Below are positions 2,780 through 64,000 of a DNA stretch of 64,000 nucleotides, in pieces. The stretch lies in the IMG/VR virus record IMGVR_UViG_3300036761_004198. One strand, 5' to 3'. Made by a program: the position numbers and the translations under genes. The notes beneath the pieces were generated by a model, which saw only the letters and a program-made list of their open reading frames with translations, did not search any database and was not told where the DNA came from. This DNA comes from an uncultured virus (IMG/VR IMGVR_UViG_3300036761_004198). Its lineage: Duplodnaviria > Heunggongvirae > Uroviricota > Caudoviricetes. How positions within the stretch are numbered: the stretch's first letter is position 1; each line of letters starts with the position of its first letter.

Positions 2780-3445
2780 TCACAGCGGAGCGTTGCCGGT
2801 TTCCATGATCGAGTCTTCGTCGCGCTTGAGCTTCACGTCGAGGAACTTCTGCGCGCAATCCTCGCCCACGAACATCCCGTGCGTGACGCTGTCGTCGCCG
2901 GTTGCATGCACCGGCACGCGGTGCGACTTCATGACGAGCTTGTTGCAGAGGTTGCAGTGCAGACCACCCGCAAACCGGCTGTCGAAGCGCGTGCCGGGCG
3001 GAAACTGCGGGTAGCCGACCATCACCTTGGCGCGGACCATGCCCTTGATTTTGCCCTGCGGGATCATGCCCCAGCCGCCCTTCTGCTTGCCGCACCGCGG
3101 GCAGTTGCCGTAGGGCTTGTTCGCCTTGGACGCGTCGCGGTGCGCCTCTTGGCTGTAGGCGTGGGTCACCTGGTGACCAGCGCTGTACGGTGGCGGCGGG
3201 ATGACGTGACCATCGACGATCCGCACGAACTTGTGGCCGTGACAGATCGGGCAGGTAACCAGACCCATGACCTCGCGCTCTTCCTCGACCCACTTGATCG
3301 GCGTGAGCTGCCACTGCGACGGCGAGGTGCCCATCTGCGCCAGCGTCACCAGCGCTTTCGCGCTGTGCGGCGTCGTGGCGCCCGCGAGCGCGAGGGACTC
3401 GGCGATCTCGCGATCGAGCTGCGCGGGGCTCTTCTTCTTGGCCAC
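2780..3445 (-). CDS. QLDxEIA-tag protein (N-terminal tag) with CxxC motifs
   Basis: GTG 3445: VAKKKSPAQLDREIAESL; CPIC, CPRC, CNLC. Confidence 0.75.
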   Translation of the reverse strand: MAKKKSPAQLDREIAESLALAGATTPHSAKALVTLAQMGTSPSQWQLTPIKWVEEEREVMGLVTCPICHGHKFVRIVDGHVIPPPPYSAGHQVTHAYSQEAHRDASKANKPYGNCPRCGKQKGGWGMIPQGKIKGMVRAKVMVGYPQFPPGTRFDSRFAGGLHCNLCNKLVMKSHRVPVHATGDDSVTHGMFVGEDCAQKFLDVKLKRDEDSIMETGNAPL

Positions 3446-3447
3446 GA

Positions 3448-3846
3448 CTAGTAGCCCATCTCGTCGTTGTACGCCTCGACACCGTGGAGCATGCCGGCTT
3501 CCATCGCGCGCTCGCGGCGCCACTCTCCGTCGGAGCGCTCCAGCTCGCGGCGGTTGCGCTCGCACGACGGACGATCGGGATTCTGCGTCAGCTCGTGCGT
3601 CTCGGGGCCGTCGATCATGACGTACTCCCACGAGCCGCGCGGCCCGCACGCGAGCGCGAGCTTCGAGTCATCGGGGAACATCACCACCTCGCGGTAGCAC
3701 TGGATCGCCTCCTCGCGCGTGGCGAAGTCATCGCCGGTCCAGCAGTCGTCGTTGTCCGTCTCGTCGGGGTTCGAGCCCCACAGCGTCACGCTGTAGGGCT
3801 TGTCGAGACCGTGGGTGAAGTCGCGGTGCTCGGTGCTCGTGGTCAT
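3448..3846 (-). CDS. hypothetical protein, first gene after a sigma54-like promoter
   Basis: GAGGGAG RBS; promoter at 3861-3875. Confidence 0.7.
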   Translation of the reverse strand: MTTSTEHRDFTHGLDKPYSVTLWGSNPDETDNDDCWTGDDFATREEAIQCYREVVMFPDDSKLALACGPRGSWEYVMIDGPETHELTQNPDRPSCERNRRELERSDGEWRRERAMEAGMLHGVEAYNDEMGY

Positions 3847-3860
3847 GGGCTCCCTCTGAT

Positions 3861-3959
3861 GCGAGTACCACGCCAGGCCATGCGCACGTCAAGTCCGCGA
3901 TCGTGCACGCCTGGGTAGAAAGCTACCCGTGTCGCCACGTGGTGGGTACCTCGAGACCC
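3861..3959 (-). promoter_or_regulatory. sigma54-like promoter with paired GGGT-N8-ACCC boxes
   Basis: TGGCGTG-gtac-TCGC 14 nt before ATG 3846; boxes 3913-3928 and 3944-3959. Confidence 0.7.
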
Positions 3960-3976
3960 GGATATCGAGCTCTACA

Positions 3977-4014
3977 GGCTACGGCTGCTACGGCTACGGC
4001 TGTACGGCTGGCTG
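3977..4014. repeat. imperfect (AC)GGCT microsatellite abutting a transposon-like end
   Basis: ggct acggct gct acggct acggct gt acggct ggctg. Confidence 0.7.
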
Positions 4015-4045
4015 GGCTGTACCCCAAAACTCCCTCGGAAATCCG
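4015..4045 (+). mobile_element. transposon left-end copy (partner end not found)
   Basis: GGCTGTACCCCAAAACTCCCTCGGAAATCCG matches 43070-43100 at 26/31. Confidence 0.65.
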
Positions 4046-4060
4046 CCCTCGACGTGCATC

Positions 4061-4098: not shown

Positions 4099-4106
4099 CT
4101 CACGGC

Positions 4107-4760
4107 ATGGTGCGCAAGTCTCCTGCTCAGTTGGACCGTGACATCGCCGAAGCACTGTCGCGGACACCGGGCTCGACAGCGCCCATGACGCACGGAACTT
4201 CCATCGACACCACGACGACCCTTGAGCGCAAGTTCCGTTCTCGTCAACGCGATGCGCTGACGTTGTCAGAGAAGGCGCGGCAGGCTCGTGGGGCTGCCGC
4301 TCGCTGGATGAAACGATCAAGCGCTTATGCACGAGAGGGCGAATTCCGAGCCGCTGATGATGCACAGACCGAGGCTGTTTCGCTCGGACAAATGGCAACT
4401 GACCTTGAAACGGAAGCCGTGCGTATTAGGACCAGGTCGCACGCAACGATGAAAACGATCGCCGCACCGGTCCATCACGATCGCCTGGCCACGGCCATCG
4501 CGAGAGCCGTCCGAGATCCGCACTACTGGCGCGGAGGATCGTTCGACATCGACGATGCGATGCAGGCGCTGCCGAAGCTCCAGGGTGCGTACGACTGGCA
4601 GCGTGTGTTGGACCTGGTCGATGACTATCTGGAGGGTGTCGCCGGTGTTGCTGGCGCGACTGGCGGGGGATTCCCTGAACGTGCTACCCGCGGAGTCGGA
4701 GGTCACGAAGTCAAAGCTGTGCAGGCGATGATTCAACGTCTCCGGCGCGTCTCGTTCTGA
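4107..4760 (+). CDS. QLDxEIA-tag protein (N-terminal tag)
   Basis: MVRKSPAQLDRDIAEAL; internal SHATMK. Confidence 0.75.
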   Translation: MVRKSPAQLDRDIAEALSRTPGSTAPMTHGTSIDTTTTLERKFRSRQRDALTLSEKARQARGAAARWMKRSSAYAREGEFRAADDAQTEAVSLGQMATDLETEAVRIRTRSHATMKTIAAPVHHDRLATAIARAVRDPHYWRGGSFDIDDAMQALPKLQGAYDWQRVLDLVDDYLEGVAGVAGATGGGFPERATRGVGGHEVKAVQAMIQRLRRVSF

Positions 4761-4783: not shown

Positions 4784-5149
4784 ATGCCTAAAACGCCAAA
4801 GCAACTCGACGATGAGATCGCCGGCGCTCTGGCGCGGCGCAAGGTCATTCAAGATGCGGCGCGGGCAGTGAGATCGGATCTCGAACACGTGGGCTATGGT
4901 GGGGGCCGATGTGCCGACGCGAGCTGTCAGCTCGCAAAGAGACTGAACGCCGCGGGCATCGAAGCGCGGGTGATTGCCGGCCGCTTCAAGATGCCAGAGA
5001 GTAGGGCCGATTCGCCTCATCATTGGGTGGAGGTCGATGGCCACGTGGTCGATCCGACCGTCGACCAATTTCAGATTGGCTTCGACGAACGACTGCCCAA
5101 GATCCTCATCACCTCCTACGAGGATTTTCCGCACTATCGGAAGCCTTGA
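4784..5149 (+). CDS. QLDxEIA-tag protein, transglutaminase/papain-like C-H-D domain
   Basis: MPKTPKQLDDEIAGAL; GRCADAS...HHWVEVDGHVVDPT. Confidence 0.7.
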   Translation: MPKTPKQLDDEIAGALARRKVIQDAARAVRSDLEHVGYGGGRCADASCQLAKRLNAAGIEARVIAGRFKMPESRADSPHHWVEVDGHVVDPTVDQFQIGFDERLPKILITSYEDFPHYRKP

Positions 5150-5180: not shown

Positions 5181-5714
5181 CTACTTCAGGGGACGCCCAC
5201 ACCGACGACAAATGCGGGCGTGGCCGAGGCTGCGATAGTACCGCTCTTCCTCAGCTGCGAAGTTCCTCTCGTAGACGTAGTCGGGCAGCCTGAAAGCTAG
5301 CTGCGACTCGCGAGCGGGACTCGTATCGTTCAACGCGTCGAGGTCGATCCGATCAAGACAGTACGGCTTACCTTCGGGCATCGTGGCCCAAACAGCCTGC
5401 GCGATCGTCCTGGCGCTCCGTGGGCCTTGCAGATTGTACTTGTGGTTGACGGCGTCGAACTCGGACGGTGACACCGCGTAGTCCACGCCACCGTAATTCT
5501 GAACGACCTCGTAGTTGGTATCGAGGAATGCTTTGAGCGCCTTGGTCTTGGTGTCGTAGCAGACGCGATCCTCTTCGGGCGTTGCCTTGCGCCACCAGTT
5601 CGCGAGTTGGGTGCTGTGGGAAAGGTTTTTGCGGTGAGCTGTAGGCGCGCGACCCGACGCGAGCGCCTCGGCGATCTCGCGGTCGAGCTGGGGCGCGGTC
5701 TTCTTCTTCGCCAT
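5181..5714 (-). CDS. QLDxEIA-tag protein (N-terminal tag)
   Basis: MAKKKTAPQLDREIAEAL; TAGGAT 6 nt before ATG. Confidence 0.8.
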   Translation of the reverse strand: MAKKKTAPQLDREIAEALASGRAPTAHRKNLSHSTQLANWWRKATPEEDRVCYDTKTKALKAFLDTNYEVVQNYGGVDYAVSPSEFDAVNHKYNLQGPRSARTIAQAVWATMPEGKPYCLDRIDLDALNDTSPARESQLAFRLPDYVYERNFAAEEERYYRSLGHARICRRCGRPLK

Positions 5715-5930
5715 GAGGTGATCCTATCAGCTCGACGGCGACGCGGAGCGCGGAGCTATCCGCGGTGAAGATGGTGGGGGTGGTTGGCGTGATCGCCGAA
5801 ACAGCTAGCGCCCGTTTGCGGACGCGCAGTACGAGTCTGTGATCGCCTGACGTCGAAATGATTGCAAAATTCCCGTTGCGGGACTGCGCGAAAATGTACC
5901 TCGCTAGGCGGCCTAGTTACCCTCGGAGCT

Positions 5931-6839
5931 ATGGCAGACATGAACAAGCGAGGACTGGACGATTGCGAGGGTGGTGAAGGTGGCGAGCGCGGCAAGCGCG
6001 GCAAGCGTGGACACCGCGGCCACCGGGGCCACGAGGGTCCGGTGGGACCCACAGGTCCCTCGGGACCTCCAGTCAGTGGATGCACGAACCACCCGAACTC
6101 GCCAGGCATCCAGGCGCTGATGTCCGACCTGGTCTATTGGTCGAAAGACCTTTGGGAGCACTGCATCTTTCACGAGTTCGCGATCACGAATAACCCGGGT
6201 TTCCTTGCCCGCGCGCAGACGCTCGCGAACCCCGGCGCGGGCCCCACGAATTCGTGGCCGGATTTCATAACCGGCGGATATCCCGGCGGCCTCGCGGGCG
6301 CCCGTATTCTCGCGGTCAAGACGCAGACCCTTGAGCAAGATATCTTCAACCAGATGCAGATGCCTGGTCTGCCGGGCTTCGTCGGCTGGCTCTCGCAGGA
6401 TGTCTACGCTCACTGTATCTCCGAGGCGCAAGCGTTCATCGACACCATCGACGGAAAGGTTTGGCAGGTACAAGAGCTGCGAAACCTGTGGTGGAGCTGG
6501 AACGGCGAGCATGCAGCAAGCGGTCAGAGCTTCATCGCGCCGATCTCAGGGAAGACATCGCTCGATCAATCGCGAGCATTCTCGAACAAGTTCTTCGAGC
6601 AACGCGATCAGATGATCGCGATCGGAACTGGAGGCACCGCGTGTAGCTGTGATCTCGATGCGGCGGCCATCGCATCGGGCGTTGCCTACGACAGCTTCCT
6701 CGACGGCTTGCACGTCGGTGCGGGCGCTCCGTTGCAGGTACCCTCGGTCTACATCGAGCTCGTCATCACGCACATCAAAGCCGAGACCGACGCAGCGAAC
6801 CAGATCATCGCCCTGCTCGGCTGCGCGCCGTCGCCTTGA
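5931..6839 (+). CDS. protein with His/Arg collagen-like leader and DUF2935-like helical repeats
   Basis: GERGKRGKRGHRGHRGHEGPVGPTGP; two W-x4-EH ... H-x2-3-E units recalling DUF2935 (by eye). Confidence 0.65.
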   Translation: MADMNKRGLDDCEGGEGGERGKRGKRGHRGHRGHEGPVGPTGPSGPPVSGCTNHPNSPGIQALMSDLVYWSKDLWEHCIFHEFAITNNPGFLARAQTLANPGAGPTNSWPDFITGGYPGGLAGARILAVKTQTLEQDIFNQMQMPGLPGFVGWLSQDVYAHCISEAQAFIDTIDGKVWQVQELRNLWWSWNGEHAASGQSFIAPISGKTSLDQSRAFSNKFFEQRDQMIAIGTGGTACSCDLDAAAIASGVAYDSFLDGLHVGAGAPLQVPSVYIELVITHIKAETDAANQIIALLGCAPSP

Positions 6840-7510: not shown

Positions 7511-8268
7511 GGCGTGTCCTCCTCGCGCCTGCCGTCATTACTCGGCAGAGCGCTGATCTCGGCGTCGACTTCGAGGGCCTTCTTCTCCCACGCGATCAGC
7601 ACTTCCTCGCGGAACGGATAGCGCTCGCGCAGCGCGGGATGGAGCATGAACACCGCCGCGGCGGCGGTCCCATCGAAGTCTCGACGAGGCGCGCCGTGAT
7701 CGCCGACGTCCGACTCCATGAGCCTCACCTGTCCATCTGCCACGGCCATCGCGACGACTGGCCGCGTGTCGTCCTCGCAACCCTCCCCACTCATCAGGGT
7801 CACCGTCAAAATCACGAACGGGAAGGCCGTCGCCAGCGTCTGCCAGTCGGCGCGGATCTCCTCGACGGAGGGCCACTTGCCGACGTTGTCGATGTAGTAG
7901 ATCTGGCCGTCGGGGTGACACCAGCCGTGTGGGCCGTGGATGAAGGACGATCCGATCCAGTTGTTGTGCACGTACTGGGTCTCGATCGCACCCCACACCG
8001 TCTTCCAGCGATCGCAGCGATCCCAGTGCGCCCTCCAGTCGAAACCCTCAGGGTGGCGCTCGGCGTAGTCCTGGAAGTGCGGCATGCGGAACCGCCGCGC
8101 GAGACGGCGATCGCCGTCGCGATCGTTGCAACCATGCCCCGACACGAACCACGAGTCGGTGCGACGGATCACCTCCAGCGCGAGATCTTCGCGGAGACGT
8201 GGGCCGGTGACGATCATCTGGGGCCACTTCGGCAGCCCACGGTTGAGCAGCTCTTCGTCGTCCTTCAT
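7507..8268 (-). CDS. hypothetical phage protein
   Basis: GGAGAA RBS, ATGA overlap. Confidence 0.7.
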   Translation of the reverse strand: MKDDEELLNRGLPKWPQMIVTGPRLREDLALEVIRRTDSWFVSGHGCNDRDGDRRLARRFRMPHFQDYAERHPEGFDWRAHWDRCDRWKTVWGAIETQYVHNNWIGSSFIHGPHGWCHPDGQIYYIDNVGKWPSVEEIRADWQTLATAFPFVILTVTLMSGEGCEDDTRPVVAMAVADGQVRLMESDVGDHGAPRRDFDGTAAAAVFMLHPALRERYPFREEVLIAWEKKALEVDAEISALPSNDGRREEDTP

Positions 8269-15178: not shown

Positions 15179-15736
15179 TCATCTTGGCTCCTGGACCAAC
15201 GATGGCACCACAGTGGCGCTTGCGCGAAGCAGCCAGATCTGCGCGTGACCGTAGGGCCAGCGTGCCAGCCCTCGCTCAAGATGAAGATGCCAGAGCGTCG
15301 TCAGCGGACGCGTATAACCGACTTCCAGCGGCACATCTTGCGGATCGAGTAAAACTTCTCCGATGTACAGCGGCTCGACCCACGAGAAGCTGCCGTCATC
15401 GTCGCCCTTGCCTTCGCGAATGATCGCCTTGAAGGGCGTCTCCAATGACGTGAGCTTCTCGCGATTCTTCGTGATCTGATCGTCGCCGCTTGGCGTCGAG
15501 CCGAGATGGATCGGCGTGATTGTGATCTTCCCTGCTCGAATAGCGGCATAGACCTGACCGAACGCGTAGGCGTCATAGAGGTCGTACGACCCTCGCCAGC
15601 GTTGCGTAACTACGTCGACGATTGGTTCAAACTCACCCGCAAGCATGCGTTTTCGTAGACCCGCGTAGACTTCAAGCGCCCCCGGCTCGCACAACAAATC
15701 GTCGACGTGCGCTGTCCACGTCTCATGGATACTCAT
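15179..15736 (-). CDS. hypothetical protein
   Basis: ATGA overlap with integrase stop. Confidence 0.6.
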   Translation of the reverse strand: MSIHETWTAHVDDLLCEPGALEVYAGLRKRMLAGEFEPIVDVVTQRWRGSYDLYDAYAFGQVYAAIRAGKITITPIHLGSTPSGDDQITKNREKLTSLETPFKAIIREGKGDDDGSFSWVEPLYIGEVLLDPQDVPLEVGYTRPLTTLWHLHLERGLARWPYGHAQIWLLRASATVVPSLVQEPR

Positions 15737-46558: not shown

Positions 46559-46570
46559 ACATTGGTCATC

Positions 46571-51131: not shown

Positions 51132-51575
51132 ATGGCCATGCAGGGCAAGCTTGTCGACCGGAACGGTGCGCTCCACGTGCTGTACCAGACGACATTCGAC
51201 CAAGAGCCGATCCGCCGATCGCTCTACTGGAAGGTGATCCAGACGACCGGCAATCCGTACGGTCACGAGCGCCCGGCTGCCGGCGACAGCGTGCGCTACA
51301 GCAGCTCGGGGAGCTGGGCCGTCACCAACCGCAGGGCGGGCGGTGTCTCGACAGGTGACGGCACCGTCGATGCCGCCTTCGTCGAAGACGCGCCGGTACC
51401 GCCGCCACAGGCCCGCGGCAAGGAACTCCGCTGGTACCAGGGGCGCTGGCAACGATCGTCCACCAAGGGCTGGATCGACGCGGGCGAGGGAAGCTCGAAA
51501 CCACGCGGCCGAAGAAGCCGTGCGGCTCAGCTCGACTCCGAGATCACAGAGGCGCTCTCGGGACGAAAGGAGTGA
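51132..51575 (+). CDS. QLDxEIA-tag protein (C-terminal tag)
   Basis: RRSRAAQLDSEITEAL at 51510-51557. Confidence 0.75.
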   Translation: MAMQGKLVDRNGALHVLYQTTFDQEPIRRSLYWKVIQTTGNPYGHERPAAGDSVRYSSSGSWAVTNRRAGGVSTGDGTVDAAFVEDAPVPPPQARGKELRWYQGRWQRSSTKGWIDAGEGSSKPRGRRSRAAQLDSEITEALSGRKE

Positions 51576-51578: not shown

Positions 51579-52331
51579 GTGCCTGCACGGAAGAAGAAGC
51601 CCTCGCCCTACACGTCCGAATCTCTCGCGGTGTCGCGACGCGGCCCACTCCACGAGGAGCGCGCGATCATCTACGATCTGATGTCGCACTACCGTCACCT
51701 CCAGTCGACGCTGGCATACTACGACCGCTCGACCGGCAAGCCGATCGCTGACGAAGCCGAGAAGCTCCGGCAGGAGACGTGGCGGCGCATCGAGGCACTT
51801 TCTGGGTCGTCGCGTGCCAAGGCACGCGAGCTTTGCACTCGTATCATCGACGGCGAGACCGTACCGATCGACGAGCTGCGCCGCGTAACGACACCTGAAA
51901 CTACGCGAGCGTTTTTGGGCAAACAGCAGCACGCGACGAAGAAGACAGCGAGGCAGCTCGACGGCGAGATCGCCGATGCGCTCACGCAACGGTCCAAGAA
52001 GCCGTCGTCCATGGTGCTTGCGGTGTTTGAGAGCATGGTCGACAACGCCGAGACCGAGGGTGGCGAGAACCTGTCCCTTGGACAACGCGGCTTGGGCTAC
52101 ACCGGTGATCCCAAGGAGTTCCGCTTCAGCAAGATCTTCGCGAGCCGTATCCCAGGCGCCAAGTACGAGCGCCTCGTCGAGATCATCGAAGAGCACAGCC
52201 AGCGGCCCCACGATCGGCTCGGTCGAGTGTTCACACCGAAGGAAGCCGCTTGGATGCTTGCCGAGGCGCGCAAGATCTACGGTGACGAGCGCCGTCACAT
52301 CGATAACGTCCTGCGCGAGAGGAATCTCTAG
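51579..52331 (+). CDS. QLDxEIA-tag protein (internal tag)
   Basis: HATKKTARQLDGEIADAL at 51930-51983. Confidence 0.75.
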   Translation: MPARKKKPSPYTSESLAVSRRGPLHEERAIIYDLMSHYRHLQSTLAYYDRSTGKPIADEAEKLRQETWRRIEALSGSSRAKARELCTRIIDGETVPIDELRRVTTPETTRAFLGKQQHATKKTARQLDGEIADALTQRSKKPSSMVLAVFESMVDNAETEGGENLSLGQRGLGYTGDPKEFRFSKIFASRIPGAKYERLVEIIEEHSQRPHDRLGRVFTPKEAAWMLAEARKIYGDERRHIDNVLRERNL

Positions 52332-53339: not shown

Positions 53340-54266
53340 ATGAAACCTGTCGACCTCCCCGATCCCGCATCGCACCCACACGGGACGCGCGCCCGTTACG
53401 TCAGCATGAAGTGCCGTTGCGACGCCTGCCGCGCAGCGAACACGCAGTTCGCACGGGACTGTGCCGCGCGCGCGAAGGCGCGCGCGCTCGAAGCGGCGAC
53501 CGGCGCAGCTGCGGAACCGGCACCGCAGATCTGGACCGCGCCCGACGGCTCAAAGCAGATTCGCATCTACAAGCGCCTCTGCGCGGGCATCAACGGCCAA
53601 CCCTGCCCGACGAAGTCGCACCTGCGTAAGGATTCGACCGGCGACATCTGCGGAAGGTGCCGCATCGGTCTCGCCTACGCCGGCCTCGTGTCGAGCGAAC
53701 GAGCGCGGGCACATCTCAAAAAGCTCGCCCAGGAGGGTGTCGGGAAGATTGCCGTGCGTGATGCCTGCGATGTAGCCGCCTCGATGCTGCACGAGATCCG
53801 GCGGGGCCGCTATCCGCGGATCCGCGTCGAGACCGAGCGCCGCATCCTCGCGGTCGATCGCGAGGCAGTCGCAGATCACGCGATCATCGACGGCCGGCGG
53901 ACGCACCGCGCGATCGCCAAGATGCTCGGCCACGGTCTCACCAAGGGCGAGATCGCCCAGCGCCTCGGCTGCGAGACGCCCGCACTCCAGATCAAGCATC
54001 GCGTGATCGCGAAGACCGAGGCCCGCGTCCTGCGCCTGCTCGCCCAGGTCCGCGCTGAGGCCCTGGCGTGCAAGTGTTCGCCGAAGATCTGTCCGATCTG
54101 CGGGCTGTCGCACGCGCGGACCGACCGGCTGCGCGTGATCGCGCGCATGCTGCCCGCAGACTTCGTGGAGGTCCATGCCGCCTGGCCGTGCCTCTACGAG
54201 AACACGAACACGGGCTACGTGCGGTTCTTGCGCGATCGGCGCGTCCTCCAGGAGAAAATGCCGTGA
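53340..54266 (+). CDS. Cys-rich phage DNA-binding-like protein
   Basis: HGT..RY...CRCDACRAA; HTH-like segments. Confidence 0.65.
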   Translation: MKPVDLPDPASHPHGTRARYVSMKCRCDACRAANTQFARDCAARAKARALEAATGAAAEPAPQIWTAPDGSKQIRIYKRLCAGINGQPCPTKSHLRKDSTGDICGRCRIGLAYAGLVSSERARAHLKKLAQEGVGKIAVRDACDVAASMLHEIRRGRYPRIRVETERRILAVDREAVADHAIIDGRRTHRAIAKMLGHGLTKGEIAQRLGCETPALQIKHRVIAKTEARVLRLLAQVRAEALACKCSPKICPICGLSHARTDRLRVIARMLPADFVEVHAAWPCLYENTNTGYVRFLRDRRVLQEKMP

Positions 54267-54685
54267 AGATGTCCGCGTCCGCCGAGATCTGGAAAAGCCT
54301 CACGCAGCGCCAGCGCCTGGAGCTGCTCGGCGTAGCAGAAACCGGCGTCCATGAAGTCGTCGATCCGTACGACGATGAAACCGACGAAGTGATCGCGGCG
54401 GTCAAGGCGAGTGTCGGGATCGACGACCCACGACTCGATTTCTTTACGTGGTCGCGCACCACGAGAGGGGCGCTTGTCAAGAAAGGGCTGATCAAGATCA
54501 GGCCGATCCAGGGGGCGCGGGATCTGGCGAACGTCGAGCTGACTACCCTCGGACGAAGAGTCGTCGAGCGCGCGAAGTCGATCATGCACCGCGCGGCCTC
54601 TTCGGCCGAGACGGGTGCTCACAACAAGAAGAGTGCGCGGGAACTCAACGCCGAGATCGCCGAGGTACTCCAGGAGAAGCTATGA
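54263..54685 (+). CDS. QLDxEIA-tag protein (C-terminal tag)
   Basis: HNKKSARELNAEIAEVL at 54620-54670. Confidence 0.7.
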   Translation: MKMSASAEIWKSLTQRQRLELLGVAETGVHEVVDPYDDETDEVIAAVKASVGIDDPRLDFFTWSRTTRGALVKKGLIKIRPIQGARDLANVELTTLGRRVVERAKSIMHRAASSAETGAHNKKSARELNAEIAEVLQEKL

Positions 54686-55065
54686 AGCCTGCCCGCGTCT
54701 TCCTGTCCGTCCAGCCCGTCGGCCACCGCAAGCCAGCAGGCGCTAATCCGTTCACCTACCGCGAGACGCGGCCCTCGCGTTGGCGCGCAAGCTGGTGGAC
54801 ACGCGGCACGACGACCGAACTGTACCGTGGCAAGCCCGTCGCTACGCAGGAGGAAGCCGTGCGCCTGGCCCGCGCGTGGCTCGGCCGCAGAAACAAGGAG
54901 GCCGAGGCCGAGGGACGGCCGGCCGACACGCGCCTGATCGACACGACCGACCAGCCCGAGCGCTACGGCTACGCGCACGAGCCAACCACACCCGCCGAGA
55001 AGAAGAAGAGCGCCGCGCAGCTTGACGCCGAGATCGCCGCGTCGCTCGCGAGAGGAGAGCACTGA
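54682..55065 (+). CDS. QLDxEIA-tag protein (C-terminal tag)
   Basis: KKKSAAQLDAEIAASL at 55000-55047. Confidence 0.75.
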   Translation: MKPARVFLSVQPVGHRKPAGANPFTYRETRPSRWRASWWTRGTTTELYRGKPVATQEEAVRLARAWLGRRNKEAEAEGRPADTRLIDTTDQPERYGYAHEPTTPAEKKKSAAQLDAEIAASLARGEH

Positions 55066-55066
55066 C

Positions 55067-55369
55067 ATGCGCGAAGTTCGCCGTACCTTCCACGTGGGAC
55101 CGCGCGGCCTCACCCGCCCGATCGTTCTGCGCAGCACCGCCCCTGGGTACTGGCGAGCGCCCGACAACGCCCTGTTTCTGCACCACGGTCACGTGTGGCT
55201 GGGTCCGATCGAGAAGTGGATCGCGCCACACACGGAGCGCACGTTCACCTCGCTCCAGTCCGCCGTGAACGACTGGGCGCGCGCGGGACAGGCAGCCCAA
55301 GAGAAGAAGAGCCCGCAGCAGCTCGACGCCGAGATCGCTGAGGTGCTCGCGCGGGAGCCGCGGCCGTGA
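55067..55369 (+). CDS. QLDxEIA-tag protein (C-terminal tag)
   Basis: KKSPQQLDAEIAEVL at 55304-55348. Confidence 0.75.
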   Translation: MREVRRTFHVGPRGLTRPIVLRSTAPGYWRAPDNALFLHHGHVWLGPIEKWIAPHTERTFTSLQSAVNDWARAGQAAQEKKSPQQLDAEIAEVLAREPRP

Positions 55370-56179: not shown

Positions 56180-56740
56180 ATGGCCGCCAAGCCGCGCAAG
56201 AAGAAGGAGCCCACTCTCTCCAAGGAGGCCGCGCTCGAGATCGTTCGGCGCCTCATGCGATCGACAGGCTTTGACGAGGAGGGGCAAGAGGGCGATCGGA
56301 TCCACTTCGGTTCCCGCGAGGGTGGCGACATGGAAGAGGATCGCGCCGATCCGGCCCTCGTACGATTTGCCCTCACGAGGGCCAAGGAAATCGAGGCCGC
56401 TGTCCCCGGATCGAAGGTGCGTGTCGAGCCGGTCGACGAGTGGGTCACGATCGATGTGACGCTGCCGTCCGAGGCCGCGAAGGCAACGAAGCCGCCAAAG
56501 CCACCGAAGCCTCCGAAGGCCGCGATCATTTCCCCCGCCGCGCCACCCGCTCCGCAACAGCGACGCTACCTCAAGCCCGGCGACGAGGTTGACTACACGA
56601 ACTTCACGATCGGCGGCTCGTTCAAGGGCACAGCGATCGTGTCGTGGGATCACGGCAAGTACGTCGAGGCGCGTACGCTCGGCGGCGAGAGACTCCATCT
56701 GGAGCGCGCCGCCGATGGATCGCTCAGAAGGTTTACGTGA
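56180..56740 (+). CDS. hypothetical two-module protein with KPP linker
   Basis: AAGGAG RBS; KPPKPPKPPK. Confidence 0.65.
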   Translation: MAAKPRKKKEPTLSKEAALEIVRRLMRSTGFDEEGQEGDRIHFGSREGGDMEEDRADPALVRFALTRAKEIEAAVPGSKVRVEPVDEWVTIDVTLPSEAAKATKPPKPPKPPKAAIISPAAPPAPQQRRYLKPGDEVDYTNFTIGGSFKGTAIVSWDHGKYVEARTLGGERLHLERAADGSLRRFT

Positions 56741-57093
56741 AGAAGACGGCGCCCCAGCTCGACGCCGAAATCGCGGAAGCGCTCTCCGCGCACGAGGAGC
56801 TCGCCCGCCGCCAGCGGCAGCGGATGTCCAGGCTCCGACCCGTCGAGGGTCTATGGATCCCCGCCGACGCACGCGATGAACTGACGCGCTTTTGGCAGGC
56901 GCGTCCCGCCTTGAGGAAGGGCTGTCTGGGCAAGTATGGCTTCGATCCGATCGACGAGGAGACGTCCTACTGGCGCTTCGGTTTGGCCGAACCAGATCAC
57001 AGCGACGTTCTGCGTGCAGTTCGACGGGACGGCGGCGTCTTCTCGCTTCCGCACGTCAAGCGCTGGGAGATCGAAGAGCTGAGGGACGCATGA
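56737..57093 (+). CDS. QLDxEIA-tag protein (N-terminal tag)
   Basis: VKKTAPQLDAEIAEAL. Confidence 0.75.
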   Translation: MKKTAPQLDAEIAEALSAHEELARRQRQRMSRLRPVEGLWIPADARDELTRFWQARPALRKGCLGKYGFDPIDEETSYWRFGLAEPDHSDVLRAVRRDGGVFSLPHVKRWEIEELRDA

Positions 57094-57521: not shown

Positions 57522-57529
57522 TCCCAAAG

Positions 57530-58096
57530 ATGCCCAAGAAAACGGCCAAACAACTCGACCGCGAAATCACCGAAGCGCTCACGCGATCGTACCCGAACAA
57601 CCGTCCGTGGTGGATCTGGCAGCTTTCGCCAAAGCCGAAGGTCACTAAGAAGGTTGACCTGCCCTGGGCTTATTCTTGGAAGGGCGTCACCGAAGGGCAG
57701 CCGTTCTCACGCGAGGACATCCGCTCGCTCATGGGCTTCAAGGATATGGCCAAGCTCAAAGCGCTGCCTCGTCGTTTCGGTTCGATGCTGGCCGTCGAAA
57801 TGACAGCGCCGGGAATGCGGCGAATGCTAACGCCCCCGCTGTACGTGTTCGCAGACTTGAAGAAGATCGATCCGCAGCTCGATCTGCGCGACATTGGCAG
57901 TCCTCGCTTCTGGATCCAGCCCGAGATCTATCAAGCGACGCACGGCGAGATCTACCAGGGTGAGAATGCGCAAGACTTGCTCGACGTCGATCGCGACGCC
58001 TTGACTGAAGCTGCTGATCAGAGAGCCGTGAACGACGTGCTGGTCGCTCTCGACGCGTATCTAACGACAGATCGACCCGACGTGCGCTTCGTGTGA
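57530..58096 (+). CDS. QLDxEIA-tag protein (N-terminal tag)
   Basis: MPKKTAKQLDREITEAL. Confidence 0.75.
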   Translation: MPKKTAKQLDREITEALTRSYPNNRPWWIWQLSPKPKVTKKVDLPWAYSWKGVTEGQPFSREDIRSLMGFKDMAKLKALPRRFGSMLAVEMTAPGMRRMLTPPLYVFADLKKIDPQLDLRDIGSPRFWIQPEIYQATHGEIYQGENAQDLLDVDRDALTEAADQRAVNDVLVALDAYLTTDRPDVRFV

Positions 58097-60948: not shown

Positions 60949-61878
60949 ATGGCGTTCATGAGACCCGAGATCACCGAGAAGCAGGAGTGGGCGGAAGTCG
61001 AGACGACGGCCGGTATTTGGTGGGTACCGTTCGACGTACTGTCCAAAAGCGAGGCCGAGAGCGCGCGGCGCGGCGACTTCGCGCCGCTCCTCAAGTACAC
61101 CGAGGGTAACGCTGTGTACCTCGACCAGTCGAGCATCAAGAAGGGTTACGGTGTTCGCCTCTCGGCACCCGGCTACATGGACGCGACCGAGTGGGAGGTC
61201 TACGGCAACCTGAAGGAAGCGCAGCGTCGCGCGAAAGAGCTGATCGAGGAGGAAGACGAGGAGGGGACGCCGGCTCCGGGCCACGCGACGATCGCGCACG
61301 CGACGAAGAAGAAGTCCAAGGCGCAGCTCAATCGCGAGATCGCCGAGGCGCTCGCGGGCAAGGGCACTTCGCGAGGAAGGCAGCACAGCTCGATTTCCGA
61401 TAGCGACAAGATTCGCAACGCCATCGCGCGCTTTCCGTCTACGTTTGGGCTTCGGGGCTTCCCGGGGGACGTGTTCCGCATCTCGCCGACGTCGAGTTAC
61501 GTCAGCGGCGAGCGCGTCATGCTCTACACAGAGCGCAAGGACAATGGTGCTTGGCTAGACTTCTCCAAGGGCACCGAATCCGAGCTTCGGAGCGAAGTCA
61601 CGTCGCTTGCATCCACAGGCAGTAGGTCGCACTCGACAAAATCGAAGAAGCGCCCTTCGCAGGGCAGTGTCGTGGGCAGGCACGGTCTCGGTACAGCGGA
61701 TGTACGGACGGGCGAGGGCGCCTACTGGATCGTCACGGGGCCGACCGGATATCGCGTCGACTACAAGCCATGGGGACCTAGCAGCGAGGTCGATCTCGGC
61801 ACGTTCTCCTCGCGGAGGCAGGCCCGCGCGAAGATCACCGTGCATGCTGGCAGCATCGGCGCGACGATCGTTTCTTAG
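60949..61878 (+). CDS. three-module QLDxEIA-tag protein
   Basis: HATIAHATKKKSKAQLNREIAEAL (61282-61353); second linker SHSTKSKK. Confidence 0.8.
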   Translation: MAFMRPEITEKQEWAEVETTAGIWWVPFDVLSKSEAESARRGDFAPLLKYTEGNAVYLDQSSIKKGYGVRLSAPGYMDATEWEVYGNLKEAQRRAKELIEEEDEEGTPAPGHATIAHATKKKSKAQLNREIAEALAGKGTSRGRQHSSISDSDKIRNAIARFPSTFGLRGFPGDVFRISPTSSYVSGERVMLYTERKDNGAWLDFSKGTESELRSEVTSLASTGSRSHSTKSKKRPSQGSVVGRHGLGTADVRTGEGAYWIVTGPTGYRVDYKPWGPSSEVDLGTFSSRRQARAKITVHAGSIGATIVS

Positions 61879-62189
61879 CCCGACGTCCCCACCCGCCGCG
61901 GCGTGATACTTCCGCCACATGCCAACGAAAAACGCTATGCCGCCCCAGAACCAGCAGCCCAAAGGTCCCAAGGCCATCCCGAGCCAGCTCCAACTGCCCG
62001 GCGGGATCGTGCTCAAGGGCATGCCGTTCAAGATCGTCGCGTACAACCCCGACGGCACGCCCAAGCTCTTCGAGCTACAGCCCCCCGGCCCCCACGACCT
62101 CAGCGCGGACGGTGCGTGCGTCCTCTTCGCGCGCGAGGAGCTGCTCCGCAACCCGTGGCCGCGGAAGGCCCACGAGTAAAGGTACAGCG

Positions 62190-62666
62190 ATGACCAACAT
62201 CGAAGCCGACAACCTGATCGCGACGCTCCCCAAGCCGGGTGGGCTCAAGCTCTTCCGCGAGGACGATCGGATCGTGATGGACGGTGGCAAGTGGGGAACA
62301 CACGCGCTCAGCGCCAAGGTCTCGAGCGCAGAGCGGCTGCTCGTGCACTGGAGGGGCTACGTCGAGAACCAGGGCCTCGCACTCGGCCCCGGTTACTCCA
62401 CCGAAAGGCCGTCCCCCGCGCTCATCCCGCACCTCAAGAGCACCGAGCGCGACTACCAGCCCGGCGACAAGATCGCTTTCAGCGCGCCCAGCTACTCGGG
62501 AAAGAGCGCGCATGGCTACCGGCCGGGCGTCGTCGTGCGCGCGACGCCCAAGCGCGTGCTCGTCGAGTATTCGTTCAAGTACGACCTCGAAGACGCTCGC
62601 AAAACCAAGCAGCCACCGCGTCGGCACCAGATCTGGAAGAAGCGCTCCGAGGTGCAGAGGCGATGA
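62190..62666 (+). CDS. hypothetical protein; N-domain paralogous to the 63435 ORF
   Basis: GTHAL...SS.ER.L.HWRG.V.N.G. Confidence 0.65.
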   Translation: MTNIEADNLIATLPKPGGLKLFREDDRIVMDGGKWGTHALSAKVSSAERLLVHWRGYVENQGLALGPGYSTERPSPALIPHLKSTERDYQPGDKIAFSAPSYSGKSAHGYRPGVVVRATPKRVLVEYSFKYDLEDARKTKQPPRRHQIWKKRSEVQRR

Positions 62667-62796
62667 CGAAAAAACTCGGCGCGGGCGTGGGCGAGCTGTG
62701 CTCAACGCCGAAGTCGGGACACATGCACCACGATGTGCATGGGGTCCGTCGTAACGTGCGCAGGCGTTAGTCCCCAGGAGATCGAGGAGCAGACCC

Positions 62797-63438
62797 ATGC
62801 GCGACATCGAAGACATTACGGGGCTGAGCGCTGACGCCCGTCGGCTGTTTGACTGGATGACCGCGGCATTCACCGGCGACGTCAACGAGGCGCTCGCGGA
62901 TGCGCAAGCAAGCGGGACGTCGATCTCGAAGTGGCCGCACGAGCGACTGCGCAAGGCGCACGCGGAGCTGAAGGAGCGCGGAGTGCTCACGGCTGACGCG
63001 CCGGCACTTGAGCCCACTGCCCCAACGCGGGGTCATGCGACGAAGAAGTCCGCGCGCCAGCTCGACGCAGAGATCTCCCAGGCTCTCGCGAAGACGACGT
63101 CGCCGATCTCGCCGGTTGCGACACCTGCGAAGCACAAGCGGCTGACCAAGGCGCAGATCAAAAAGCTGCGCGTTGAGCTACGCAAGGCGATCAAGGTCGA
63201 GCAGGAGGAAGCCGAGTACCGCCACCGCTACATGAATGAAGATGACTACCAACGCGCCGGCGATAATGCGATCAAGGCCGCTGGGATTTATGGAAAGGCG
63301 GCGGGACAAGCAGGTGACGACGGCGTGGAGATCTGGGAGGTCGTTCCCGGAGAGGGAACGGTCGACGATCAGATCGCGGAGTGGCACGAGCCAAAACAAT
63401 CGCCAAGGTTTACTGAGCTAATCGGGCGCATACGATGA
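62797..63438 (+). CDS. QLDxEIA-tag protein (internal tag)
   Basis: GHATKKSARQLDAEISQAL (H at 63034 to 63087). Confidence 0.78.
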   Translation: MRDIEDITGLSADARRLFDWMTAAFTGDVNEALADAQASGTSISKWPHERLRKAHAELKERGVLTADAPALEPTAPTRGHATKKSARQLDAEISQALAKTTSPISPVATPAKHKRLTKAQIKKLRVELRKAIKVEQEEAEYRHRYMNEDDYQRAGDNAIKAAGIYGKAAGQAGDDGVEIWEVVPGEGTVDDQIAEWHEPKQSPRFTELIGRIR

Positions 63439-64000
63439 AGCATGACGAGGCTCAGAAGCTCGCGCAAACGCTATCCGCCTGGGGAGAGAAGGGAATCCTC
63501 ATTGCTCGGATCTCTGCTGACGGTGATCAGATCGTCTTCGGTGGAACAGGCGCGAAGACCGGCACGCATGGCCTGGACATCAACTCCAGCTCGCGCGAGC
63601 GCGTGCTCGCGCACTGGCGCGGCTTCGTCACGAACAACGGCGGCACCATCCCCGTGGAACCCACGCCGGTGTCGCCACCGGTCAAGACGCCGCCGGCTCA
63701 GCTCGACCGCGAGATCGCCGCAGCGCTGCGGCAGCCCACGCGCACGGCACTACGCCAGCCCACGCCGTTTGATGCTGATCTCTCACGGGATCGACAACCG
63801 ATCCGTCACCACGTCCGCCGCTTGGTCGTCGTGACCTACTGGGGAGATCCGCAGCACAAGGCCGGCGGCCGACAGCAGCTCGGCGAGTTCACGACGAGTG
63901 ACCGCTATGCGCGTGCCTGGCTCGCCAATAGCCAGCGTTTCGCCAAGTACGAAATCGACACGCACCAAAAGGGGACCGCCTACTCCGGTGGACCCGTTGC
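63435..64000 (+). CDS. QLDxEIA-tag protein (internal tag), runs off the window end; absent from the ORF track
   Basis: ATGA overlap; MKHDEAQKLAQ...KTPPAQLDREIAAAL (63684-63728). Confidence 0.75.
   Translation, partial: MKHDEAQKLAQTLSAWGEKGILIARISADGDQIVFGGTGAKTGTHGLDINSSSRERVLAHWRGFVTNNGGTIPVEPTPVSPPVKTPPAQLDREIAAALRQPTRTALRQPTPFDADLSRDRQPIRHHVRRLVVVTYWGDPQHKAGGRQQLGEFTTSDRYARAWLANSQRFAKYEIDTHQKGTAYSGGPV

What the first reader, a model, noticed from the sequence alone, without database searches (positions are those of the whole stretch)
2780..63728. Portable peptide tag KK(S/T)xxQLDxEIAEAL fused to 15 unrelated proteins
Seen: a basic patch plus amphipathic helix occurs at the N-terminus (3392-3445-, 4107, 4784, 5661-5714-, 56737, 57117, 57530), the C-terminus (51510, 54620, 55000, 55304) or between modules (51930, 61297, 63034, 63684), with a degenerate copy at 52740. 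The carrier proteins share nothing else. Copies cluster at 2.8-5.7 kb and 51-64 kb, and I saw none in the ~45 kb between. All are in frame with synonymous codon variation (CAG CTC GAT / CAG TTG GAC / CAA CTC GAC / CAG CTT GAC), which points to selection on the peptide. Inference: a position-independent sorting signal, for example loading cargo into the capsid for ejection into the host (analogous in function to the T4 internal-protein capsid targeting sequence or encapsulin targeting peptides), or docking onto one shared phage or host protein. I do not recognise it as a described family.
Basis: partly seen in the sequence, partly recalled or inferred. Interest (0 to 1): 0.92.

Follow-up and report, generated by a model that had tools for sequence, protein, structure and literature searches.

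The report
Portable helix tag on phage proteins
A group of very large, uncultured phage-like elements puts the same short helical peptide on hundreds of otherwise unrelated small proteins, most likely as an address label, and joins the protein modules with a second short motif that looks like a cut site.

Summary
All 15 copies of K-K-[S/T]-x-x-Q-L-D-x-E-I-A-x-x-L sit at the stated places, in frame, in 15 proteins with no other BLAST-detectable similarity. There are none in other frames and none between 5.7 and 51.5 kb.

The tag is not private to this window. A profile of it finds 879 protein clusters among 1.84 billion representatives. All listed carriers are small (35-398 aa) and nearly all lack any known domain. 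Those looked up lie on metagenome contigs of up to about 0.5 Mb that carry phage-like genes. I found the tag in no GTDB species genome, IMG/VR contig, GenBank phage, plasmid, Pfam, NCBIfam or PHROG model, PDB natural protein or searched paper.

Selection acts on the peptide. Synonymous change is as frequent as in the flanks, while amino-acid change is three times rarer.

Three new points emerged:
- Carriers are chains of freely shuffled small modules.
- Each chain carries one tag, whatever its number of modules.
- A second motif, R-x-H-A-T-K-K, marks inter-module linkers and is almost never near a protein end.

Best reading (about 0.35): an address helix read by one shared receptor, probably for loading basic, cysteine-poor cargo chains into the virion, with HAT as the cut site. 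No receptor, cleavage or virion link has been shown.

The parts
3392..3436 (-). Tag copy (KKSPAQLDREIAESL). It is N-terminal in the zinc-ribbon-rich carrier 2780-3445(-), start GTG 3445.
   Evidence: 36.8 bits
4113..4157 (+). Tag copy (RKSPAQLDRDIAEAL). It is N-terminal in carrier 4107-4760(+).
   Evidence: 38.2 bits
4787..4831 (+). Tag copy (PKTPKQLDDEIAGAL). It is N-terminal in carrier 4784-5149(+), a small transglutaminase-like Cys-His-Asp peptidase-fold protein.
   Evidence: Pfam Transglut_core E 5e-5
5661..5705 (-). Tag copy (KKTAPQLDREIAEAL). It is N-terminal in carrier 5181-5714(-).
   Evidence: 40.1 bits
51513..51557 (+). Tag copy (RSRAAQLDSEITEAL). It is C-terminal in carrier 51132-51575(+).
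   Evidence: 31.4 bits
51939..51983 (+). Tag copy (KKTARQLDGEIADAL), internal in carrier 51579-52331(+) and directly preceded by HAT.
   Evidence: predicted helix 124-138 in a low-confidence model
54626..54670 (+). Tag copy (KKSARELNAEIAEVL). It is C-terminal in carrier 54263-54685(+), which has a weak match to a PHROG transcription-regulator family.
   Evidence: 33.8 bits
55003..55047 (+). Tag copy (KKSAAQLDAEIAASL). It is C-terminal in carrier 54682-55065(+).
   Evidence: 34.1 bits
55304..55348 (+). Tag copy (KKSPQQLDAEIAEVL). It is C-terminal in carrier 55022-55369(+).
   Evidence: 37.5 bits
56740..56784 (+). Tag copy (KKTAPQLDAEIAEAL). It is N-terminal in carrier 56737-57093(+), whose GTG start overlaps the stop of the gene upstream.
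   Evidence: 39.3 bits
57120..57164 (+). Tag copy (KKTASQLDAEIAEAL). It is N-terminal in carrier 57117 (or 57090)-57521(+).
   Evidence: 40.7 bits
57536..57580 (+). Tag copy (KKTAKQLDREITEAL). It is N-terminal in carrier 57530-58096(+).
   Evidence: 38.5 bits
61309..61353 (+). Tag copy (KKSKAQLNREIAEAL), internal in the three-module carrier 60949-61878(+), between modules X (aa 1-105) and Y (aa 151-216).
   Evidence: AF2 with alignment gives helix 124-136 at pLDDT about 70, flanked by linkers below 50-60
63043..63087 (+). Tag copy (KKSARQLDAEISQAL), internal in carrier 62797-63438(+) and preceded by HAT.
   Evidence: 34.7 bits
63684..63728 (+). Tag copy (KTPPAQLDREIAAAL), internal in carrier 63435->64000(+), which runs off the window.
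   Evidence: 33.7 bits
52743..52781 (+). Decayed tag (TTRKSAARLDRAE) at the N-terminus of a gene that probably starts at GTG 52740.
   Evidence: GC3 0.90 in this frame; not found by the HMM
51930..51938 (+). HAT junction motif directly before the tag at 51939.
61282..61305 (+). Two HAT motifs in tandem (GHATIAHAT) in the disordered linker after module X, directly before the tag.
   Evidence: linker 107-119, pLDDT below 50
61630..61638 (+). HST junction motif (SRSHSTKSKK) without a helix, in the linker between modules Y and Z.
   Evidence: linker 224-236, pLDDT below 50
63034..63042 (+). HAT junction motif directly before the tag at 63043.
4440..4448 (+). HAT junction motif (RTRSHATMK) inside carrier 4107-4760, about 100 aa after its N-terminal tag.
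   Evidence: the same arrangement occurs in homolog P0009
5610..5618 (-). HST motif (NLSHSTQ), 24 aa after the Q of the tag in carrier 5181-5714.

Best explanation
The tag is a lineage-specific, portable address peptide. It consists of two lysines, a Ser/Thr helix cap and a three-turn helix (Q-L-D-x-E-I-A-x-x-L). Eight of its positions are nearly invariant and cover about two thirds of the helix surface, so it most likely docks into a groove of one shared receptor.

The tag is attached once per polypeptide, at either end or between modules. The polypeptides are chains of small, freely shuffled, mostly unknown domains. A second motif, R-x-H-A-T-K-K, sits in the disordered linkers between modules. 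It is almost never near a protein end and is most simply read as the site where chains are cut into their modules.

My committed guess for the destination is the virion. The element looks like a very large phage, and the carriers are small, basic and poor in cysteine. The design (one conserved address on many polymorphic cargoes, followed by proteolysis) is that of the T4 capsid targeting sequence.

Shown here: the anatomy, the spread, peptide-level selection, module shuffling, one tag per chain and the internal-only placement of HAT.

Inferred: docking to a shared receptor (about 0.7), cleavage at HAT (about 0.4), and the capsid as destination (about 0.3-0.35).
For: Anatomy of the tag:
- Across 164 non-redundant copies the conservation is K-4 93%, Q 98%, L 99%, D 92%, E 97%, I 98%, A 84% and L 95%. 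The variable positions (+3, +7) lie on one face of the helix.
- In an AF2 model with pLDDT above 90 for the flanking modules, the tag is an isolated helix (residues 124-136, pLDDT about 70) and the HAT-bearing linkers are below 50.

Selection on the peptide:
- In 115 homologous carrier pairs, core tag positions show 28% synonymous change and 10% amino-acid change. The flanks show 24% and 32% (odds ratio 3.6).
- Of 55 homologs of one carrier that span the tag columns, 52 keep the tag core.

Portability:
- The 164 copies fall in 91 carrier families.
- A profile search finds 879 protein clusters at E<=1e-3.
- Only 8 of the top 150 carriers have any Pfam domain.

Module shuffling at the tag and HAT:
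- The arrangements X-tag-Y, tag-Y-Z, other-tag-Y-Z, X-tag-Z and X-HAT-other all occur.

One tag per chain:
- Of 238 proteins, 208 carry one tag and 8 carry two.
- Of 84 proteins with 2-5 HAT motifs, 78 have exactly one tag and none has two.

HAT motif:
- The tripeptide HAT was seen 134 times against 5.8 expected.
- 291 of 294 H[AS]T (HAT/HST) lie at least 30 aa from the C-terminus and 283 of 294 at least 30 aa from the N-terminus.
- HAT/HST directly precedes 109 of 165 internal tags, 2 of 34 N-terminal tags and 1 of 7 C-terminal tags (5 of 27 C-terminal copies in the loci).

Cargo-like make-up:
- Window carriers have a median pI of 9.2 and 0.56% Cys, against pI 7.0 and 1.72% Cys in 63 non-carrier genes.
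- Cys is 0.2% in the top 150 carriers.

Phage-like setting:
- PHROG matches occur in the window.
- Relatives carry IF3, sigma factors, Ro60 with RNA ligases, and endolysin-type Amidase_2 and GH25 domains.
- One carrier module is a stand-alone small ORF in T4-like and jumbo phages.
- The only significant fold match is to a protein of Burkholderia phage BcepSaruman.
- Relatives lie on contigs of 324-502 kb.

Precedent, read as passages of two papers:
- The T4 CTS is the only conserved part of highly diverse internal proteins and can package foreign proteins (PMC3012670).
- It is a 10-20-residue propeptide removed by the prohead protease. Jumbo-phage heads hold 50 or more proteins (PMC5694885).
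Against: - No capsid, portal, prohead-protease or terminase gene was seen in the window or in about 160 kb of tag-bearing loci. The neighbours are replication, RNA-repair, regulatory or unknown genes.
- The whole contigs could not be read, so even the phage assignment is unproven. The window holds an integrase, ParB-like and RepB-like genes and a transposase.
- The family is absent from the IMG/VR set searched.
- No receptor is known and no cleavage has been measured.
- Known T4-type and jumbo-phage head proteases cut after Glu (passages). HAT-KK holds no Glu, and the I-A-E inside the tag has its Glu in only 55% of copies.
- HAT is scarce before C-terminal tags. This fits 'the tag must stay on its cargo' better than 'the tag is discarded after loading'. 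However, those copies come from few families and are not independent.
- The selection tests are conditioned on both members still having a recognisable tag, and loci were fetched by a pattern that fixes the core residues. Both inflate the apparent conservation.
- Low cysteine and high pI also fit other readings, such as nucleic-acid binders or disordered-rich proteins.
Confidence: 0.35

Rival explanations
1. The tag is a docking handle for a hub inside the infected cell, not the virion. It would tether many small early or accessory proteins to one phage or host machine, such as RNA polymerase, the replisome, a chaperone or AAA+ protease (including use as a timed degron), or a condensate or compartment.
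For: - It rests on the same anatomy as the best explanation: an invariant polar and hydrophobic helix face, one tag per chain and independence of position.
- Tag genes sit among regulatory, replication and unknown small genes in tightly packed same-strand blocks, not among structural genes.
- Carriers include a sigma region-4 protein, HTH-like regulators and peptidase-fold proteins.
Against: - No hub has been identified.
- An eightfold cysteine depletion (0.2% against 1.72%) and the basic pI are not expected of ordinary cytoplasmic regulators.
- Terminal degrons are usually tied to one end of a protein, whereas this tag works at either end or internally.
Confidence: 0.3
2. This is a polyprotein economy with no sorting. 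The chains are only a way to express many small proteins together. HAT is the cleavage site, and the helix is the exosite where the processing peptidase docks. The peptidase could be one of the tagged peptidase-fold proteins, such as the transglutaminase-like protein at 4784-5149 or the YgjP-like metallopeptidases of relatives.
For: - HAT is internal only and lies in disordered linkers.
- HAT units can be doubled or tripled in one linker.
- Fused and split forms of the same modules interconvert, with split genes starting at M-x-K-K-[ST].
- Peptidase-fold proteins carry the tag themselves.
- Proteolytic release of domains is the proposal made for polyvalent proteins (PMC5512222, passages).
Against: - 34 of 206 tags in database proteins are at the extreme N-terminus and 7 at the C-terminus of chains, mostly without HAT. 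An exosite for cutting would have nothing to do there.
- There is one tag per chain, not one per junction.
- Many HAT junctions lack a helix (79 of 163).
Confidence: 0.15
3. The tag is a self-association handle. Tag helices from different proteins bundle together and so assemble the small proteins into mixed oligomers.
For: The only PDB sequences that match the tag profile are designed helical-barrel coiled coils with the heptad EIAQALK or EIAKALK (best E 8e-4). The conserved face of the helix is wide.
Against: - The helix has only about 12 residues, under two heptads.
- Its invariant Q, D and E are unlike a simple hydrophobic seam.
- The matches to designed peptides concern one heptad only.
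Confidence: 0.07
4. The tag is a selfish or neutral in-frame DNA repeat, or a scar of recombination between gene cassettes, with no function as a peptide.
For: - Some synonymous codons are more uniform than the background: Leu+1 CTC 78% against 45%, Arg+3 CGC 83% against 47%, and Ala+6 GCC 61% against 33%.
- Module shuffling does break at these sites.
Against: - All 15 matches found in the window lie in the coding frame. None is out of frame or intergenic.
- Synonymous change in the core is as frequent as in the flanks, while amino-acid change is three times rarer.
- The tag is retained in 52 of 55 homologs.
- Mean DNA identity of the core among window copies is only 70%.
Confidence: 0.03

Closest known systems
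Capsid targeting sequence (CTS) of T4 internal proteins IPI-III and Alt
   Same: In both cases one short conserved peptide is the only thing shared by a polymorphic set of small proteins, and it is portable to unrelated cargo. Both are coupled to proteolysis (PMC3012670 and PMC5694885, passages).
   Different: - The CTS is an N-terminal propeptide of 10-20 residues that is removed by the prohead protease after a Glu.
- This tag also works at the C-terminus and between modules, and is mostly not preceded by a cut-like motif when terminal.
- Its companion motif (HAT-KK) contains no Glu.
- The tag is found on 879 or more protein clusters.
- No link to a virion has been shown.
Polyvalent proteins of phages and conjugative elements (Iyer et al. 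2017, PMC5512222)
   Same: Both are chains of unrelated domains in variable combinations, encoded by mobile elements. Polyvalent proteins are proposed to be delivered with the DNA and to be cut into their parts by peptidases (passages).
   Different: - Polyvalent proteins are large, with 2-15 mostly recognisable enzymatic domains and often embedded zincin peptidase domains.
- No conserved linker motif is mentioned in the passages I read.
- The chains here are no longer than about 430 aa. Only 8 of 150 have any Pfam domain.
- They are punctuated by two conserved linker motifs.
Cargo-loading peptides of encapsulins and encapsulation peptides of bacterial microcompartments
   Same: From my own knowledge, not tested here: these are short helical or extended peptides on flexible linkers, at either end of unrelated cargo enzymes, that dock onto the inside of a protein shell.
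   Different: No encapsulin or microcompartment shell gene is present in the window. The sequence is unrelated, and this tag also occurs internally.
Prohead-protease processing of jumbo-phage head and ejection proteins (SPN3US, phiKZ, 201phi2-1)
   Same: Many proteins of unknown function are loaded into a very large head. Long propeptides probably target them, and several cut sites occur per propeptide (PMC5694885, passages).
   Different: Those sites are A/S/G-x-E with cleavage after Glu, and no shared helix tag is described there. Here the motifs are HAT-KK and a defined helix.

Membership tests
T4-type capsid targeting sequence | Located at the extreme N-terminus of the cargo | tested here: not met
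   Only 7 of 15 window copies are N-terminal; 4 are C-terminal and 4 internal. In database proteins the counts are 34 N-terminal, 7 C-terminal and 165 internal.
T4-type capsid targeting sequence | Ends in a prohead-protease site, with cleavage C-terminal to Glu (PMC5694885 passages) | tested here: inconclusive
   I-A-E lies inside the helix, but its Glu (+7) is present in only 55% of 164 copies. The invariant Glu (+4) follows D-x. No cleavage data exist.
T4-type capsid targeting sequence | Carriers are proteins of the virion interior | not testable with these tools
   There is no isolate and no proteome. The only indirect evidence is composition: pI 9.2 and Cys 0.2-0.56%.
T4-type capsid targeting sequence | The genome encodes a prohead protease and a scaffold core that read the tag | not tested
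   The whole contigs were not readable. No such genes appear in the 64-kb window or in 123 (Pfam) and 115 (PHROG) ORFs of the loci.
Polyvalent proteins | Two or more unrelated domains in one polypeptide, with variable architectures across relatives | tested here: met
   Modules X, Y and Z occur in many combinations. AF2 shows separate folded modules on disordered linkers.
Polyvalent proteins | Large proteins dominated by recognisable conflict-related enzymatic domains, often with embedded zincin peptidase domains | tested here: not met
   Carriers are 35-428 aa, and none longer than 398 aa turned up in two searches for longer forms. Only 8 of 150 have a Pfam domain: DUF6496 six times, Sigma70_r4 once and DUF5661 once. 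Peptidase-fold proteins occur as separate small carriers.
Encapsulin or microcompartment cargo peptides | A shell protein gene lies next to the cargo genes | tested here: not met
   There is no encapsulin or microcompartment shell family among 108 window ORFs or 123 locus ORFs.
Any described protein family or motif (Pfam, NCBIfam, PHROGs, PDB, literature) | A model, structure or published string that covers the tag | tested here: not met
   No model lies over the tag. The PDB profile search finds only designed coiled coils. Ten tag strings searched in about 8.4 million full texts gave 0 papers.
In-frame selfish DNA repeat (such as palindromic elements translated within genes) | Conserved as DNA, with copies in all frames and in non-coding DNA | tested here: not met
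   No copy is out of frame. Synonymous sites are free and amino acids are constrained.

The most novel reading that the evidence does not exclude
A clade of 0.3-0.5 Mb phages, possibly of Myxococcota-like hosts, uses a two-part protein code. One 15-residue address helix per chain sends an otherwise unconstrained string of small effector modules to a common destination, which I guess to be the head and from there the next host. HAT-KK separators let a protease release the modules. If so, the tag gives a sequence-only read-out of the whole delivered effector repertoire (879 or more protein clusters, almost all without known function). It would also be a natural system that tolerates the tag at either end or in the middle of a cargo.
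Probability: 0.3. Interest if true: 0.85.

Novelty: new variant of a known kind. Interest (0 to 1): 0.75.

Why it matters
If the tag is an address label, it sorts the gene 'dark matter' of a whole group of giant phages into 'sent to the same place' and 'the rest', using sequence alone. It also names hundreds of candidate delivered effectors for testing.

The tag differs from the T4 capsid targeting sequence in accepting any position in the chain. It comes with a separate junction motif and with clear evidence of domain shuffling at those junctions. That makes it a natural example of how phages build and re-sort multi-effector chains.

The claims are directly testable with a synthetic peptide, a reporter fusion and a handful of candidate peptidases.

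Tried and rejected
- **Whole genome:** none is held for the window. The records behind the loci could not be searched, so I could make no census of structural genes.
- **Near and protein-level searches of GenBank phages and plasmids:** no match for window 50-64 kb or for carrier 5184-5714. P0005 matched phages only through its C-terminal module, not the tag. It had one chance-level plasmid hit.
- **Tag DNA pattern:** 0 hits in GTDB species genomes and 0 in IMG/VR. The tag profile in IMG/VR gave 61 pattern matches, none confirmed by tblastn; that number is in the range I estimate for chance.
- **ESM Atlas:** no usable look-alike.
- **AF2 on a single sequence** (51579-52328): poor, pLDDT 44.
- **Fold search of the good model:** nothing in the PDB at E<=0.001. 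There was one viral hit, an uncharacterised protein of phage BcepSaruman.
- **Complex prediction with four copies of the 36-aa tag alignment:** no verdict (score 0.02, mark 0.42).
- **The look-up of sequencing runs:** no RNA holder listed. Three runs labelled sediment metagenome hold the stretch, and two of them may be its source.
- **Search for long tagged proteins:** none at 542-2000 aa with the window copy. Only 4 proteins of 362-398 aa were found with a canonical copy. This is weak evidence.
- **Census of gene families that recur beside tags:** confounded by alternative-frame translations of the tagged genes themselves. No shared untagged neighbour emerged.
- **Host hint from the IF3 gene of a 333-kb relative:** the best matches are a Myxococcales MAG (57%) and Geobacteraceae (60%), but 80 hits span 44-60% identity across many phyla. 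This is only a weak lead.
- **Resemblances recalled from memory:** sliding-clamp-binding motifs, ParA/MinD-stimulating peptides, double-glycine leader peptides, the Pup modifier helix, and cis-autoproteolysis His-x-Ser/Thr sites. No Pfam, NCBIfam or PDB search supports any of them. HAT also lies in disordered linkers after unrelated modules, which argues against fold-driven self-cleavage. I file the tag under none of them.
- **Previous notes of this scan**: these list other 'portable tag' findings in other giant phages. They are analogies, not evidence.

Full report
**Observation**

There are none in any other frame. Each copy lies in a long open frame.

- Seven copies are at the N-terminus of their gene, four lie 4-8 residues before the stop, and four lie between predicted modules.
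- A degenerate DNA pattern for the tag hits the window 7 times, against 0.00 in 100 shuffles.
- An HMM of the 15 copies recovers exactly those 15 (31-41 bits) and nothing between 5.7 and 51.5 kb.
- With the tag masked, the 15 carriers show no similarity to each other at blastp E<=0.01.
- The 'degenerate copy' at 52740 is a decayed N-terminal tag of a real gene.

**What the window is**

GC content is about 65%, and there are no tRNA genes. Genes are small and packed, on the minus strand up to about 17 kb and on the plus strand after that.

Pfam and PHROGs find an integrase, ParB-like and RepB-like proteins and a DDE transposase. They also find a DnaB/KaiC-like ATPase, a 2OG-Fe(II) oxygenase, a metallophosphoesterase, a radical SAM protein and an ADP-ribosylglycohydrolase. 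HAD/NT5C nucleotidases and two collagen-like proteins are present as well. No capsid, portal, protease or terminase gene appears.

No whole genome is held. Runs labelled sediment metagenome hold the stretch.

**Relatives**

The tag's DNA pattern has no hit in 185,579 species genomes or in IMG/VR. It has 94 hits in metagenome contigs. These include several places each on one 333-kb and one 461-kb contig. The loci are 75-91% identical to parts of the window.

ORFs of these loci encode IF3, three sigma-like proteins, Ro60/TROVE with RNA ligases and NUDIX. They also encode an intein-bearing helicase-like protein, Amidase_2, GH25 and YgjP-like metallopeptidases.

- One carrier module is a stand-alone small ORF in T4-like, Stenotrophomonas jumbo and Bacillus phages.
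- The only significant fold match of a modelled carrier is a protein of phage BcepSaruman.
- Homologs of one carrier sit on contigs of 324-502 kb.

I read the clade as very large phages. This is not proven, because no virion gene was seen in the roughly 220 kb I could examine. The IF3 of one relative is closest to Myxococcales and Geobacteraceae sequences, but only weakly.

**Spread of the tag**

The HMM finds 164 non-redundant copies in the window plus loci, in 91 carrier families. A 36-column profile (A1, 114 rows) finds 879 proteins at E<=1e-3 among 1.84 billion cluster representatives.

The best 150 are 35-398 aa long. Only 8 of them have any Pfam domain: DUF6496 six times, Sigma70_r4 once and DUF5661 once. 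All names given by the sources are 'hypothetical protein'.

Searches for longer tagged proteins found none above 398 aa. No Pfam, NCBIfam or PHROG model covers the tag. No natural PDB chain matches it. None of ten tag strings occurs in the full-text library.

**Anatomy**

Over 164 copies the conservation is as follows.

| Position | Residue(s) | Frequency |
|---|---|---|
| -5 | K | 80% |
| -4 | K | 93% |
| -3 | T or S | 85% |
| -2 | P or A | 73% |
| 0 | Q | 98% |
| +1 | L | 99% |
| +2 | D | 92% |
| +4 | E | 97% |
| +5 | I | 98% |
| +6 | A | 84% |
| +9 | L | 95% |

Positions +3 and +7 vary. On a helical wheel (my inference) the invariant residues cover about two thirds of the surface and the variable ones share one face. 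The S/T-P/A-A-Q stretch looks like a helix cap.

With an alignment of 61 homologs, AF2 models the carrier 60949-61878 as two confident modules (pLDDT above 90) and a third, weaker one. The linkers are disordered (below 50) and hold the HAT motifs. The tag is a free-standing helix at residues 124-136 with pLDDT about 70.

**Selection**

Codon use in the tag is close to the background, with moderate excess of CTC, CGC and GCC at three positions.

In 115 homologous carrier pairs the ten core positions show 28% synonymous and 10% amino-acid differences. The flanks show 24% and 32% (all 15 positions). Of 55 homologs of one carrier that span the tag columns, 52 keep its core.

Two caveats apply. The pairs are not independent, and both tests lean on copies that are still recognisable.

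**New findings: module shuffling and a second motif**

*Module shuffling.* The carriers are beads on a string. The same modules recur in different company. Module X of 60949-61878 occurs with tag-Y, with tag-Z or with other modules. The combination tag-Y-Z occurs as a separate gene that starts M-x-K-K-[ST] at residues 8-11, or behind unrelated N-terminal modules. Y also occurs alone. Within a module family the tag keeps its side: 73 N/N, 46 C/C and 7 in/in pairs, against 1 discordant pair.

*The HAT motif.* A second motif, R-[H/S]-H-A-T-[K/R/M]-K, is strongly enriched. The tripeptide HAT was seen 134 times against 5.8 expected in the top 150 carriers. The counts below are of H[AS]T (HAT or HST).
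- It sits 8-9 residues before the Q of the tag in 84 of 163 cases.
- It sits 12-24 residues after the Q in 28 cases, and in other linkers otherwise.
- It is almost never near an end. Of 294 occurrences, 291 lie at least 30 aa from the C-terminus and 283 at least 30 aa from the N-terminus.
- It precedes 109 of 165 internal tags, but only 2 of 34 N-terminal and 1 of 7 C-terminal ones (5 of 27 C-terminal copies in the loci).
- It can be doubled or tripled in one linker.

*One tag per chain.* Tag number does not follow module number. Of 238 proteins, 208 have one tag, 8 have two and 22 have none. Of 84 proteins with 2-5 HAT motifs, 78 have exactly one tag and none has two.

**Make-up of the carriers**

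Window carriers have a median pI of 9.2 and 0.56% Cys, against pI 7.0 and 1.72% Cys in 63 other window genes. The top 150 database carriers have 0.2% Cys.

**Interpretation**

The facts fit an address-plus-separator design. One helix per chain is read by a common receptor. The modules are free to shuffle. A junction motif is useful only between two modules and is therefore probably a cut site.

The closest known design is the T4 capsid targeting sequence. It is the only conserved part of very diverse internal proteins, can package foreign proteins, and is removed by the prohead protease (PMC3012670 passages; PMC5694885 passages). The chains also recall polyvalent proteins of phages and conjugative elements (PMC5512222 passages).

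I therefore commit to virion loading as the destination, but only at about 0.35. My estimate that the tag is a docking helix for some shared partner is about 0.7, and that HAT is cleaved about 0.4.

Points against the capsid reading:
- No structural genes lie near any tag.
- The family is absent from IMG/VR.
- Known T4-type and jumbo head proteases cut after Glu, and HAT-KK has none.
- HAT is scarce before C-terminal tags.

**Rivals**

- A cytoplasmic hub or degron (0.30).
- A polyprotein economy in which the helix is the protease's exosite (0.15).
- Self-association of tags (0.07).
- A selfish in-frame repeat (0.03), which the frame and codon tests disfavour.

**Membership**

The tag fails the defining N-terminal rule of the T4 CTS and the size and domain profile of polyvalent proteins. 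It has no shell gene as encapsulin or microcompartment cargo would. It works like these systems at the level of design, but I file it under none of them.

**Novelty**

I found no model, structure or paper that describes either motif. Supplements were not searched.

Noticed in passing
window 4440-4448, 5610-5618, 51930-51938, 61282-61305, 61630-61638, 63034-63042; proteins P0001-P0240: A second conserved motif, R-[H/S]-H-A-T-[K/R/M]-K, marks the disordered linkers between modules of tag carriers and is nearly absent from protein ends. In 12 of 163 cases the residue after HAT/HST is Met, which could be an internal start.
   Followed up: yes
P0164; P0188, P0160: Linker units can be tandemly repeated. 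Examples are RATKKSPS three times before the tag in P0164, and two or three HATKK units in a row in P0188.
   Followed up: partly
P0002, P0004, P0047: A carrier family holds a serine/threonine-rich repeat (RSPTSTS..VRSPTSTSTE..). Near its N-terminus it carries variant tags of the form KK[IL]DREI[KH][AE]L, in addition to canonical C-terminal tags.
   Followed up: no
all tag copies, e.g. window 3392-3436: Because Glu-Ile is mostly coded GAG-ATC, almost every tag carries a GATC site. About 40% carry a second one through GAT-CGC. I did not test whether this matters for methylation or restriction.
   Followed up: no
window 48858-49514; L021:5220-7610 and 7595-8257: The DnaB/KaiC-like ATPase of the window (phrog_26214) has a relative in which the gene upstream carries a Hint/intein domain and a second copy of the ATPase region. 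This suggests an intein-bearing or split replicative helicase.
   Followed up: no
window 5862-6839 and 40903-41838; L040:238-1008: Collagen-like Gly-x-y repeat proteins match phage tail-fibre PHROGs only through the repeat. One has a C-terminal match to a 'virion structural protein' PHROG (phrog_20787, E 4e-8).
   Followed up: no
window 15736-16890(-), 46562-47959(+): A tyrosine integrase and a DDE transposase with a SWIM zinc finger lie inside the element. This leaves open a temperate or plasmid-like lifestyle.
   Followed up: no
L004:6625-7341, L051:1036-3558, L027:6948-8567, L003:5976-7046: The relatives encode IF3, a Ro60/TROVE protein next to an RNA ligase, and large sigma-like proteins. 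Such genes are often reported in very large phages.
   Followed up: partly
window 4784-5149; L004:2280-2675; L032:6340-6747: Peptidase-fold proteins are themselves tag carriers or neighbours. They are a 121-aa transglutaminase-like protein with an apparent Cys-His-Asp triad, and YgjP-like metallopeptidase domains. They are candidates for the enzyme that would cut at HAT.
   Followed up: no
window 548-796(-): A small non-carrier ORF holds HAT followed seven residues later by KQLD (NFHATVFGGKQLDVNRL). It may be a remnant of the tag or a chance match.
   Followed up: no
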